From NCBI RefSeq assembly GCF_003019035.1, contig NZ_CP027447.1: a stretch of 64,000 nucleotides of DNA. One strand, written 5' to 3'. Position numbers: made by a program. The DNA comes from Escherichia coli (GTDB lineage Bacteria > Pseudomonadota > Gammaproteobacteria > Enterobacterales > Enterobacteriaceae). Below are positions 8,201 to 11,200 of the stretch, in pieces (positions within the stretch are counted from its first letter, which is position 1; the number at the start of each line of letters is the position of its first letter).

Positions 8201-11200
8201 CGGCACGCCTTCTTCAATAGAGGCGGTACACAACACTTTGGTATCGCCAAATTCGACCAGCACCGAGCCTTCTGCATGTTTTGTATAGTTACGAGTCAGG
8301 GTAACGGGACGCACCTGATTATTGCTACGGCCTGCTGGACGCATATTGAAATCTCCGGCTTGAAACAAATGTGGCTGCGCATTATACGGACTTCCGGCGG
8401 TTATTCCTATCCTGACAAGGCATCGATGGCTATAATCCTTCCACCTCTCCTTTTATAAACAGGAACGTCTATGATCCGCAGTATGACCGCCTACGCCCGG
8501 CGTGAAATCAAGGGTGAATGGGGGAGCGCAACCTGGGAAATGCGCTCGGTAAACCAGCGTTATCTGGAAACTTACTTTCGTCTGCCGGAGCAGTTCCGTA
8601 GCCTTGAACCTGTCGTTCGCGAGCGTATTCGTTCTCGCCTGACGCGCGGTAAAGTAGAATGTACTCTGCGCTATGAGCCAGATGTTAGCGCGCAAGGTGA
8701 GCTGATCCTCAACGAAAAACTGGCTAAACAGCTGGTAACTGCCGCGAACTGGGTAAAAATGCAGAGCGACGAAGGAGAAATCAACCCGGTTGATATTCTA
8801 CGCTGGCCGGGCGTGATGGCAGCCCAGGAGCAGGATCTCGACGCGATTGCCGCTGAAATTCTCGCGGCGTTGGATGGTACGCTGGACGACTTTATCATCG
8901 CACGTGAAACCGAAGGTCAGGCGCTGAAAGTGTTGATTGAGCAGCGTCTGGAAGGCGTCAGCGCCGAAGTGGTCAAAGTCCGCGCCCATATGCCGGAAAT
9001 CCTGCAATGGCAGCGTGAGCGTCTGGTCGCGAAGCTGGAAGATGCTCAGGTGCAACTGGAAAACAACCGTCTGGAGCAGGAGTTGGTTCTGCTGGCACAA
9101 CGAATTGACGTTGCCGAAGAACTGGACCGCCTCGAAGCGCATGTCAAAGAGACCTACAACATTCTGAAGAAAAAAGAAGCCGTTGGTCGTCGTCTGGACT
9201 TTATGATGCAGGAGTTCAACCGCGAGTCGAACACTCTTGCTTCGAAATCTATCAATGCCGAAGTGACGAATTCTGCCATCGAGCTGAAAGTGTTGATTGA
9301 GCAGATGCGCGAGCAGATTCAGAACATTGAATAACTCGTAACGCCAATTCTTACTTTTCAGCCTTCACAAATGCCGCCCACTCAAACAGAGCGGCATTTT
9401 TCTTCCCCGCAACTTCAATTCTGTTTTGCGTGCCTGCTCCAGATTTTGCGATGTTTTTTTGCCCAGCACACTGAGAACGTGAGATACTCACAACTGTATA
9501 TAAACACAGTTGTAAACTTACTTTCCTTGCAATCGATATCACATGGAGTGGGCAATGAACGAACATCATCAACCTTTTGAAGAAATACGGTATTATGGCA
9601 CTGAAGGGCAAGAATTTTGGTCAGCGAGAGAATTGGCACCGTTACTGGATTATCGGGACTGGCGCAATTTTCAAAAGGTACTGGCCCGCGCGACTCAAGC
9701 GTGCGAAGCCAGCAATCAAGCTGCATCTGACCATTTCGTTGAAACCACCAAAATGGTTGTATTAGGTTCAGGGGCTCAACGAGAACTTGAAGATGTTCAT
9801 CTCTCCCGCTATGCCTGTTACCTGGTAGTACAAAACGGCGACCCTGCGAAACCGGTTATTGCGGCAGGGCAAACTTATTTTGCTATCCAGACCCGACGGC
9901 AGGAGCTGGCTGACGATGAAGCTTTCAGGCAACTTCGTGAAGACGAAAAGCGTCTTTTTCTGAGAAATGAGTTGAAAGAACATAACAAACAATTAGTTGA
10001 GGCAGCGCAGCAAGCTGGGGTAGCGACAGCTATCGATTTCGCCATATTTCAGAATCATGGTTACCGGGGACTGTATGGTGGATTAGATCAGAAAGCCATC
10101 CATCAGCGGAAGGGGCTGAAAAAGAGTCAGAAGATCCTGGATCATATGGGTTCAACAGAACTGGCGGCTAATCTCTTTCGAGCTACCCAAACAGAAGAAA
10201 AACTCAAGCGGGATGGCGTGAATTCAAAACAGCAAGCTAATACCACACACTTTGACGTGGGTCGCAAGGTGAGGCAAACCATTCAGGAACTTGGCGGAAC
10301 CATGCCTGAGGAGTTGCCGACCCCGCAGGTCAGCATCAAGCAGTTGGAAAACAGTGTAAAAATTACAGAGAAGAAATAGCAGAAAATAAAAACTCTTTTT
10401 GTTGATTGAGATACCCGATGCGTAAGCCAAAGTCCAGGTGCGGTGAACACAATGGCTAAACATTGCACCTTTCTTTTCCACCCCTCAATTTTAACCTATT
10501 TTTTCTTATGCATTTTCTCAGACAAGAAGTCAGAAGAATGCATCTACGCTACAGAAAATAGCGATTTCACATAACTACAAGTTATCAATTTCCTCTCACC
10601 TTAAAAAATCTCAATCGTGACAATGCGCACAAATCGCTACCCTGCCAGACAGATTTTTAGGGAGAGAACCATGCTGTTACACATTTTGTATTTGGTTGGC
10701 ATTACTGCCGAAGCCATGACGGGGGCGCTGGCGGCCGGACGACGGCGCATGGATACATTTGGCGTAATTATTATTGCGACCGCCACGGCAATTGGCGGAG
10801 GGTCAGTGCGCGATATTCTGCTGGGCCACTATCCGCTCGGCTGGGTCAAACACCCGGAATATGTGATTATTGTCGCTACCGCCGCAGTACTCACCACTAT
10901 CGTTGCTCCTGTAATGCCTTACCTGCGCAAAGTGTTTCTGGTGCTCGATGCGCTCGGACTGGTAGTCTTTTCTATCATTGGCGCACAGGTTGCACTGGAT
11001 ATGGGACACGGCCCGATCATTGCCGTTGTCGCAGCTGTGACGACCGGCGTATTTGGCGGCGTTTTGCGCGATATGTTCTGTAAACGCATCCCACTGGTAT
11101 TCCAGAAAGAGTTGTATGCCGGTGTCTCATTTGCCTCCGCCGTGCTGTACATCGCGCTGCAACATTATGTTTCTAACCATGATGTGGTGATTATCTCCAC

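What the first reader, a model, noticed from the sequence alone, without database searches (positions are those of the whole stretch)
9494..9509. Canonical SOS box in the dinD promoter
ctgtatataaacacag is a near-perfect CTG-(AT-rich)10-CAG LexA operator within a 20-bp near-palindrome, 46 bp upstream of the dinD start. It supports the gene call and an intact SOS-regulated promoter.
Basis: partly seen in the sequence, partly recalled or inferred. Interest (0 to 1): 0.15.

Follow-up and report, generated by a model that had tools for sequence, protein, structure and literature searches.

The report
LexA operator of E. coli dinD
This is the well-known binding site for the DNA-damage repressor LexA in front of the E. 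coli gene dinD, here in a common natural one-letter variant, so the finding is correct but ordinary.

Summary
Window 9494-9509 reads CTGTATATAAACACAG, the core of the 20-mer AACTGTATATAAACACAGTT (9492-9511). It sits 46 nt before the dinD ATG (9555), in the E. coli pyrE-rph-yicC-dinD-yicG-ligB region. The bare CTGT-N8-ACAG core is not rare (1 found, 0.67 expected). The full site is: on a matrix of 17 published K-12 LexA sites (dinD left out) its heterology index (HI) is 3.3. K-12 dinD scores 2.95, the next best site in the window 12.1, and no shuffle out of 300 reaches 3.3.

The site is orthologous to the classical K-12 dinD/pcsA SOS box (19 of 20 bases). The T-to-C change at 9505 occurs in roughly a quarter of complete E. 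coli genomes. The same base is found in the validated lexA, yebG and polB boxes.

yicC transcription terminates about 90 nt upstream. The only conserved promoter candidate is TTGCCC-18-TGaGATACT, which puts the predicted start (~9495) inside the operator. This promoter assignment is inferred, not mapped.

Side observations: natural alleles that destroy the box; a two-form Bro-N segment in DinD; and DinD relatives elsewhere, which mostly sit in type I restriction-modification operons without a LexA box.

The parts
9492..9511 (.). LexA operator (SOS box) 20-mer AACTGTATATAAACACAGTT. The core CTGT-N8-ACAG is at 9494-9509, and 9505 is the C that is T in K-12.
   Evidence: HI 3.32 and 25.3 bits, 0 of 300 shuffles as good, 19/20 identical to the K-12 dinD box listed in PMC3009722.
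9490..9513 (.). Extended perfect inverted repeat ACAACTGT / ACAGTTGT with an 8-nt spacer. The outer 2 bp of each arm pair only in this allele; K-12 has ACAGTTAC.
9459..9464 (+). Putative -35 hexamer TTGCCC of the dinD promoter (inferred).
   Evidence: Invariant in the E. coli alleles aligned. TTGCTG sits at the same spacing in the diverged HH45 allele.
9480..9488 (+). Putative extended -10 element TGaGATACT (inferred). It ends 3 nt before the operator, and the predicted +1 (~9495) lies inside the operator.
   Evidence: the only candidate with A2, T6 and an upstream TG, and the top candidate in the window, K-12 and HH45 (TGgGATAAT). Not found by the strict scan.
9545..9548 (+). Shine-Dalgarno GGAG, 6 nt before the ATG at 9555.
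   Evidence: Read directly. The upstream in-frame ATG at 9543 has no such site.
9555..10379 (+). dinD (pcsA) coding sequence, 274 aa plus stop: DNA damage-inducible protein D with an N-terminal Bro-N domain.
   Evidence: PF02498, 4e-11; NF008573 equivalog, 5e-151; RefSeq start in a strain with an identical intergenic region.
9369..9401 (+). Intrinsic terminator of the upstream gene yicC: a 9-bp stem, a 13-nt loop and a U-run. It isolates dinD from read-through.
   Evidence: dG -12.4 kcal/mol, z -4.1. The K-12 yicC transcript ends at 3817606, equivalent to about window 9402, in the SMRT-Cappable-seq supplement.
8471..9334 (+). yicC, the upstream gene on the same strand (context).

Best explanation
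The site is the LexA operator of the E. coli dinD promoter. In undamaged cells a LexA dimer binds the two CTGT/ACAG half-sites. The operator starts 3 nt after the likely extended -10 element (TGaGATACT, 9480-9488) and covers the predicted transcription start (~9495), so bound LexA keeps RNA polymerase from initiating. After DNA damage, RecA filaments on single-stranded DNA trigger LexA self-cleavage. The operator is vacated and dinD is transcribed from its own promoter, which is insulated from yicC by a terminator. DinD (Bro-N domain protein) is reported to remove or inhibit RecA filaments.

Shown here: the sequence, its matrix score, its orthology to the K-12 box, the upstream terminator, and the gene identity.

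Taken from the literature for K-12: LexA-dependent induction.

Inferred: that the C variant still binds LexA well (predicted about 1.4-1.7-fold weaker from the HI difference of 0.37-0.51), and the exact promoter and start site.
For: The sequence and palindrome are confirmed. HI is 3.32 against 2.95 for the K-12 dinD box on a matrix that excludes dinD. The next best site in the 64 kb is 12.07, and 0 of 300 shuffles reach 3.32. The site aligns with the K-12 dinD box at the same distance from the ATG. That K-12 box is published (PMC3009722 Tables 4 and 7). dinD is a known SOS-box gene, with HI 2.2, 9.8-fold induction and 12-fold lexA dependence, log2 4.5 induction by ciprofloxacin, and LexA dependence by RT-qPCR in lexA mutants. 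C at position 14 is present in 4 of 17 training sites (lexA, yebG, polB, uvrD). The core CTGT/ACAG is invariant in all ten intact E. coli alleles examined. The yicC terminator is supported. The conserved extended -10 promoter abuts the box. Independent CTGT-N8-ACAG boxes lie upstream of dinD homologs in Citrobacter werkmanii (HI 4.6) and Paraburkholderia madseniana (HI 4.3). DinD's role as a RecA filament modulator comes, which cite Uranga 2011.
Against: No binding or expression data exist for this exact allele. No mapped dinD transcription start could be retrieved. The strict sigma-70 scan finds no promoter in 9250-9650, and the proposed -35 matches only 3 of 6. The box is not conserved upstream of dinD in the three other genera that share the yicC-dinD arrangement, so there is no deep phylogenetic footprint.
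Confidence: 0.9

Rival explanations
1. Same operator, different promoter geometry. The -10 element is the A/T spacer of the box itself (TATAAA, 9499-9504), with a start near 9511, so LexA competes directly for the -10 rather than covering +1.
For: TATAAA matches 5 of 6 of the -10 consensus. In the Citrobacter and Paraburkholderia homolog loci the best -10-like hexamers lie within the box spacer (read from the sequences).
Against: No usable -35 lies at 15-19 nt: the best combinations score no more than 7 of 12 and lack T6. The TGaGATACT candidate is the only one conserved in the diverged HH45 allele.
Confidence: 0.2
2. The operator is real but functionally weakened in this allele. The T-to-C change at 9505 and the adjacent substitutions at 9512-9534 would raise basal dinD expression or change induction timing relative to K-12.
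For: HI rises by 0.37-0.51 units. The variant comes with six further changes within 30 nt. It is a stable polymorphism carried by about 1,026 of 4,464 genomes.
Against: The predicted effect is small. HI 3.3 is still better than recA, sulA or lexA on the same matrix. C at this position occurs in validated boxes. The left half-site and both CTGT/ACAG cores are intact.
Confidence: 0.1
3. A chance A/T-rich palindrome, or the site of another regulator, with no LexA role.
For: The CTGT-N8-ACAG core alone is expected 0.67 times in 64 kb.
Against: The full-matrix score is never reached in 300 shuffles. The site is orthologous to a box with published LexA-dependent regulation. No RNA family matches the region.
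Confidence: 0.01

Closest known systems
E. coli K-12 dinD (pcsA) SOS box AACTGTATATAAATACAGTT (NC_000913.3 3817697-3817716)
   Same: Same locus, same strand, same distance to the ATG, and 19 of 20 bases identical. Identical candidate -35 and extended -10 upstream.
   Different: T to C at position 14 of the 20-mer (window 9505). Six further substitutions at 9512-9534 extend the palindrome arms from 6 to 8 bp. The downstream gene carries the other of two Bro-N segment types.
LexA boxes with a CACAG right half-site: lexA box 1 (TGCTGTATATACTCACAGCA), yebG (TACTGTATAAAATCACAGTT), polB (GACTGTATAAAACCACAGCC)
   Same: C immediately 5' of ACAG, as in the window allele. All are accepted LexA targets.
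   Different: Different genes. Those boxes carry more deviations elsewhere (HI 4.2-8.4 against 3.3 on the same matrix).
Near-consensus strong operators: umuDC and sbmC (TACTGTATATAAAAACAGTA), tisB/istR-2
   Same: CTGTATATAAA left part and a very low HI. dinD ranks directly after them in published HI lists.
   Different: AA/TT instead of TA/TA at the outer positions. dinD has a single box.
Boxes upstream of dinD homologs in Citrobacter werkmanii (CACTGTAAAAATATCCAGTA) and Paraburkholderia madseniana (ACCTGTATAAAAACACAGTA)
   Same: The same kind of operator, placed 29-70 nt before the start of a 66-73% identical DinD homolog.
   Different: Different sequences and genomic contexts, so probably independent acquisitions. 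Not tested experimentally.

Membership tests
LexA operator (SOS box) of the Gamma/Betaproteobacterial type | Inverted repeat CTGT-N8-ACAG with an A/T-rich spacer, within the 20-bp consensus TACTG(TA)5CAGTA | tested here: met
   The consensus is quoted in PMC6590174. 15 of 20 positions match the consensus.
LexA operator (SOS box) of the Gamma/Betaproteobacterial type | Heterology index or matrix score within the range of validated sites (the literature threshold is HI below about 15) | tested here: met
   HI 3.32 without dinD in the matrix and 2.65 with it. Validated sites range from 0.4 to 9.1 on the same matrix. 0 of 300 shuffles are as good.
LexA operator (SOS box) of the Gamma/Betaproteobacterial type | Lies in a promoter region and overlaps or abuts the core promoter or start site of the regulated gene | tested here: inconclusive
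   The site is 46 nt upstream of the dinD ATG, downstream of the yicC terminator. It abuts the best conserved promoter candidate. No experimental start site was available.
LexA operator (SOS box) of the Gamma/Betaproteobacterial type | Bound by LexA in vitro or in vivo | not testable with these tools
   For the K-12 allele, dinD is tabulated as having a known SOS box. There are no data for the C allele.
LexA operator (SOS box) of the Gamma/Betaproteobacterial type | The downstream gene is induced by DNA damage in a way that depends on LexA cleavage | not testable with these tools
   K-12 and AB1157 literature only: 9.8-fold AZT induction and 12-fold lexA3 dependence, RT-qPCR in lexA mutants, and a ciprofloxacin time course.
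Ortholog of the K-12 dinD operator | Positional and sequence correspondence in an alignment of the yicC-dinD intergenic region | tested here: met
   98% mean column identity across 7 strains, and the box columns align without gaps.
dinD gene (NCBIfam NF008573, equivalog 'DNA damage-inducible protein D') | Full-length match above the curated cut-off | tested here: met
   501.8 bits against a cut-off of 242, covering residues 1-274. The Bro-N domain is shown.
Extended -10 sigma-70 promoter | TG one base upstream of a -10 hexamer that has A at position 2 and T at position 6, and a mapped start 6-8 nt downstream | tested here: inconclusive
   The sequence features are met (TGaGATACT) and conserved in the diverged allele HH45. 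The start site is not mapped.

The most novel reading that the evidence does not exclude
E. coli dinD may be a domesticated copy of a widely transferred accessory gene. Elsewhere that gene normally sits inside type I restriction-modification operons and is PADLOC's candidate defence family PDC-S13. On this reading the LexA operator is a lineage-specific addition: it is present in Escherichia, and similar boxes are present in one Citrobacter and one Paraburkholderia locus, but it is absent from Pseudocitrobacter, Providencia and Morganella, which share the yicC-dinD arrangement. The operator and the gene would then still be in flux in E. coli, as suggested by the T/C operator polymorphism, IS and deletion alleles that destroy the box, and two sharply different Bro-N segments kept in the population. 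SOS control would have been wired onto a defence-type gene rather than being an ancestral property.
Probability: 0.4. Interest if true: 0.4.

Novelty: already known. Interest (0 to 1): 0.1.

Why it matters
It matters little for discovery. The dinD SOS box has been a textbook LexA target since the 1990s, and this window simply carries it. The check is useful for annotation. It confirms dinD, its start codon and its independent SOS-controlled transcription unit in this strain. It also records that the operator differs from K-12 by one base, in a form that about a quarter of sequenced E. coli share. The side observations could interest people who study how regulons recruit horizontally acquired genes.

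Tried and rejected
- **Motif counts.** Simple counts showed that the core pattern alone is not significant, so I replaced them with a matrix test.
- **Promoter and terminator scan.** The strict scan found nothing. The terminator was missed because its loop is 13 nt, and RNA folding recovered it. The promoter needed a relaxed enumeration.
- **Primary papers.** The papers on the dinD/pcsA promoter (Ohmori 1995, PMC176568; a guessed PubMed id for Lundegaard & Jensen 1994) and Uranga 2011 (PMC3190988) are not held. The phrase 'dinD promoter' occurs in no held paper.
- **Transcription-start data.** Three genome-wide TSS supplements were searched for dinD or its coordinates. Only the yicC transcript end was found. 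No supplementary files are held for the 2024 PNAS paper.
- **LexA binding kinetics.** A search for kinetics on the dinD operator gave nothing useful.
- **Other LexA motif types.** Scanning homolog loci for the Gram-positive (GAAC-N4-GTTC) and alphaproteobacterial (GTTC-N7-GTTC) motifs gave only two isolated hits, one of each type, and no pattern.
- **Rfam.** Nothing matched at 9250-9650.
- **A correction to my own recall.** I first recalled the K-12 DinD sequence as identical to the window's. One search showed that this was wrong (84% identity).

Full report
**1. What is at the coordinates.**
Window 9494-9509 reads CTGTATATAAACACAG, exactly as reported. It is the core of the 20-mer AACTGTATATAAACACAGTT (9492-9511). 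The surrounding genes are pyrE(-), rph(-), yicC(+, 8471-9334), a 274-aa ORF(+, ATG 9555), yicG(+) and ligB(-). This is the E. coli arrangement around dinD. The ORF is dinD: it matches the NCBIfam equivalog NF008573 at 501.8 bits against a cut-off of 242, and it has an N-terminal Bro-N domain. The ATG at 9555 is the RefSeq start in a strain with an identical intergenic region. It is preceded by GGAG at 9545-9548. The in-frame ATG at 9543 has no ribosome-binding site.

**2. Is it more than chance?**
The loose description (CTG, ten bases, CAG) is not discriminating. There are 31 matches against 13.3 expected, because CTG and CAG are common codons and a 291-bp coding repeat contributes several copies. 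The tighter CTGT-N8-ACAG occurs once, with 0.67 expected, and 52 of 100 shuffles contain at least one. The core alone therefore proves nothing.

I built a heterology-index and log-odds matrix from the K-12 LexA sites aligned in Table 4 of PMC3009722, leaving dinD out to avoid circularity. The window site scores HI 3.32 (25.3 bits). The K-12 dinD site scores 2.95 (26.0 bits). The 17 training sites range from 0.4 to 9.1. The next best 20-mer anywhere in the 64 kb scores 12.07 and lies inside yicC. None of 300 dinucleotide-preserving shuffles of the window reached 3.32; the lowest was 6.0. The site is real and is the only credible LexA site in the window.

**3. Comparison with K-12 and the E. coli population.**
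In an alignment of the yicC-dinD intergenic region from seven strains, the site aligns without gaps to the K-12 box AACTGTATATAAATACAGTT. That is the published dinD box. The window differs by T to C at 9505 (position 14 of the 20-mer). It also differs at six positions just downstream (9512, 9513, 9515, 9517, 9526, 9534).

A 76-bp query centred on the box gave these identity bands among complete genomes:
- 271 genomes at 99% or more
- 755 at 95-99%
- 3,409 at 90-95%
- 29 at 80-90%

Every sampled member of the upper two bands carries the C (AR_0077, AR Bank #0349, PCN033; also UID2309). Sampled members of the 90-95% band carry the T. The one exception is strain 500010, which has the C with a K-12-type flank. 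So roughly a quarter of E. coli genomes have the C form.

On the matrix the change costs 0.37-0.51 HI units. C occurs at this position in 4 of 17 training sites, including lexA, yebG and polB. The CTGT and ACAG cores are identical in all ten intact alleles inspected.

**4. Regulation: what is shown and what is taken from the literature.**
For K-12:
- dinD is tabulated among genes with a known SOS box (PMC6590174).
- Its box has one of the lowest published HI values (2.2). The gene is induced 9.8-fold by AZT and depends 12-fold on cleavable LexA (PMC11228462).
- It rises by log2 4.5 after ciprofloxacin (PMC11002266).
- Its LexA dependence was confirmed by RT-qPCR in lexA(Def) and lexA(Ind-) strains (PMC3009722).
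- DinD is described as a protein that helps remove RecA filaments (citing Uranga et al. 2011).

None of this was measured on the C allele. Extending it to this allele is an inference from 19/20 identity and the matrix score.

**5. Promoter architecture.**
A hairpin at 9369-9399 followed by a U-run folds at -12.4 kcal/mol (z = -4.1). SMRT-Cappable-seq data for K-12 put the 3' end of the yicC transcript at 3817606 and match it to a known terminator. That position corresponds to about window 9402. dinD must therefore have its own promoter within 9403-9554.

The strict consensus scan found none. A relaxed enumeration gave one candidate that stands out in the window, in K-12 and in the much diverged HH45 allele: TTGCCC (9459-9464), an 18-nt spacer, then TGaGATACT (9480-9488). 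This is an extended -10 with A2 and T6. HH45 has TTGCTG-18-TGgGATAAT at the same offset from its decayed box, although the surrounding sequence is heavily substituted.

This promoter predicts a start near 9495, so the operator would span about -3 to +17. The alternative, a -10 inside the box (TATAAA, 9499-9504), lacks a usable -35. In either geometry bound LexA would exclude RNA polymerase. I could not find a mapped start. The primary papers are not held, and three TSS supplements had no entry for dinD. I put about 0.6 on the first geometry and 0.9 on the operator function as such.

**6. Relatives elsewhere.**
A scan of one genome per species found at least 588 loci encoding DinD relatives. 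The best 80 are 64-82% identical and span Enterobacterales, Pseudomonas, Acinetobacter, Burkholderiales, Chlorobi, Chlamydiae, Firmicutes and even an archaeal MAG. This pattern points to horizontal transfer.

Scoring the 300 nt upstream of each locus, only two have a strong LexA-type site:
- Citrobacter werkmanii: CACTGTAAAAATATCCAGTA, HI 4.6, 29 nt before the ATG.
- Paraburkholderia madseniana: ACCTGTATAAAAACACAGTA, HI 4.3.

Three loci share the yicC-dinD arrangement (Pseudocitrobacter, Providencia, Morganella). They have a terminator and an intergenic region but no box.

In many of the other loci the gene sits inside a type I restriction-modification operon:
- Upstream neighbour: an N6 methylase in 26 of 75 loci and a specificity subunit in 10 of 75.
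- Downstream neighbour: a specificity subunit in 19 of 77, a methylase in 9 and HsdR-type domains in 5-6.

DinD also matches PADLOC's candidate defence family PDC-S13 (4.9e-124) and a type I specificity model that contains a DinD-like part. SOS control of dinD is thus a feature of some lineages, not of the family.

**7. Comparison with known systems, and verdict.**
The site meets every sequence-level criterion of a Gammaproteobacterial LexA operator and is the positional ortholog of the K-12 dinD box. Binding and induction could not be tested here. It is already known. The only additions are the natural T/C polymorphism and the promoter proposal. Interest is low (0.1). The most novel reading left open concerns the gene rather than the box: a defence-type, horizontally spread gene that was put under LexA control in Escherichia and is still polymorphic there.

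Noticed in passing
window 9505 and 9512-9534; L001 (K-12), L003-L011: The dinD operator is polymorphic in E. coli. C at position 14 plus a linked cluster of flank changes occurs in about 1,026 of 4,464 genomes, and the K-12 T form in about 3,400. One sampled recombinant (strain 500010) has the C with a K-12 flank. One allele has ACAGCT instead of ACAGTT (GDSC2227PM).
   Followed up: partly
L007 1660-1680 and 2985-3000 (strain XJW9B277); L092 (strain SCU-118): An ISKox3 (ISL3-family) element is inserted in the middle of the dinD LexA box, with an 8-bp target duplication ATATAAAT that is the box's own spacer. This separates the two half-sites by about 1.3 kb. The same insertion is present in two unrelated-source genomes. 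About 277 genomes matched the box region only partially.
   Followed up: partly
L093 about 1700-1745 (strain APEC 16-1068), aligned to window 9479-9495: A 17-bp deletion (GTGAGATACTCACAACT) removes the putative extended -10 and the left half-site of the operator, while dinD stays intact.
   Followed up: no
L094 2501-2723 (strain HH45): This strain has a strongly diverged yicC-dinD intergenic region with a decayed box (CTGTAGAAAATTAATG). Its dinD is annotated as a frameshifted pseudogene. The TTGC-18-TGnGATAAT promoter-like elements are retained.
   Followed up: partly
window 9584-9800 (dinD codons ~10-82, Bro-N domain): This is a sharply bounded hypervariable tract: 101 of 217 nt differ from K-12, against about 2-4% in the flanks, giving 84% protein identity overall. 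E. coli has two forms: 2,813 genomes carry the window type and 1,899 the K-12 type. The tract type is not strictly linked to the operator allele.
   Followed up: partly
L012-L091 (80 loci with DinD homologs): DinD homologs at 64-82% identity occur across very distant phyla. They mostly lie between type I restriction-modification genes (hsdM, hsdS, hsdR) and match PADLOC candidate defence family PDC-S13. Only 2 of 80 have a LexA-type box upstream. Three loci that share the yicC-dinD arrangement (Pseudocitrobacter, Providencia, Morganella) have none.
   Followed up: partly
L024 1492-2265 (Citrobacter werkmanii): The dinD homolog behind the Citrobacter LexA box appears split into two ORFs (104 aa and 141 aa). 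This could be a pseudogene or a sequencing error.
   Followed up: no
window 46722-59306 (- strand): A 4,194-aa ORF encodes an inverse autotransporter (intimin/invasin type) with about 27 Big_1/Invasin_D3 repeats. At the DNA level it is a 291-bp tandem array of 23.5 copies at 85% identity (49002-55853). This explains the repeated CTG-N10-CAG matches.
   Followed up: partly
window 9527-9540: Three overlapping 6-bp palindromes (TTGCAA, ATCGAT, GATATC) lie between the operator and the ribosome-binding site. This is probably chance, and no function is proposed.
   Followed up: no
window 7628-8368 (- strand, rph): rph appears full length here (246-aa ORF from an upstream TTG; RefSeq strains annotate 238 aa). 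In K-12 MG1655 it is annotated as truncated RNase PH (the known rph-1 frameshift). So the window is not from the MG1655 lineage.
   Followed up: no
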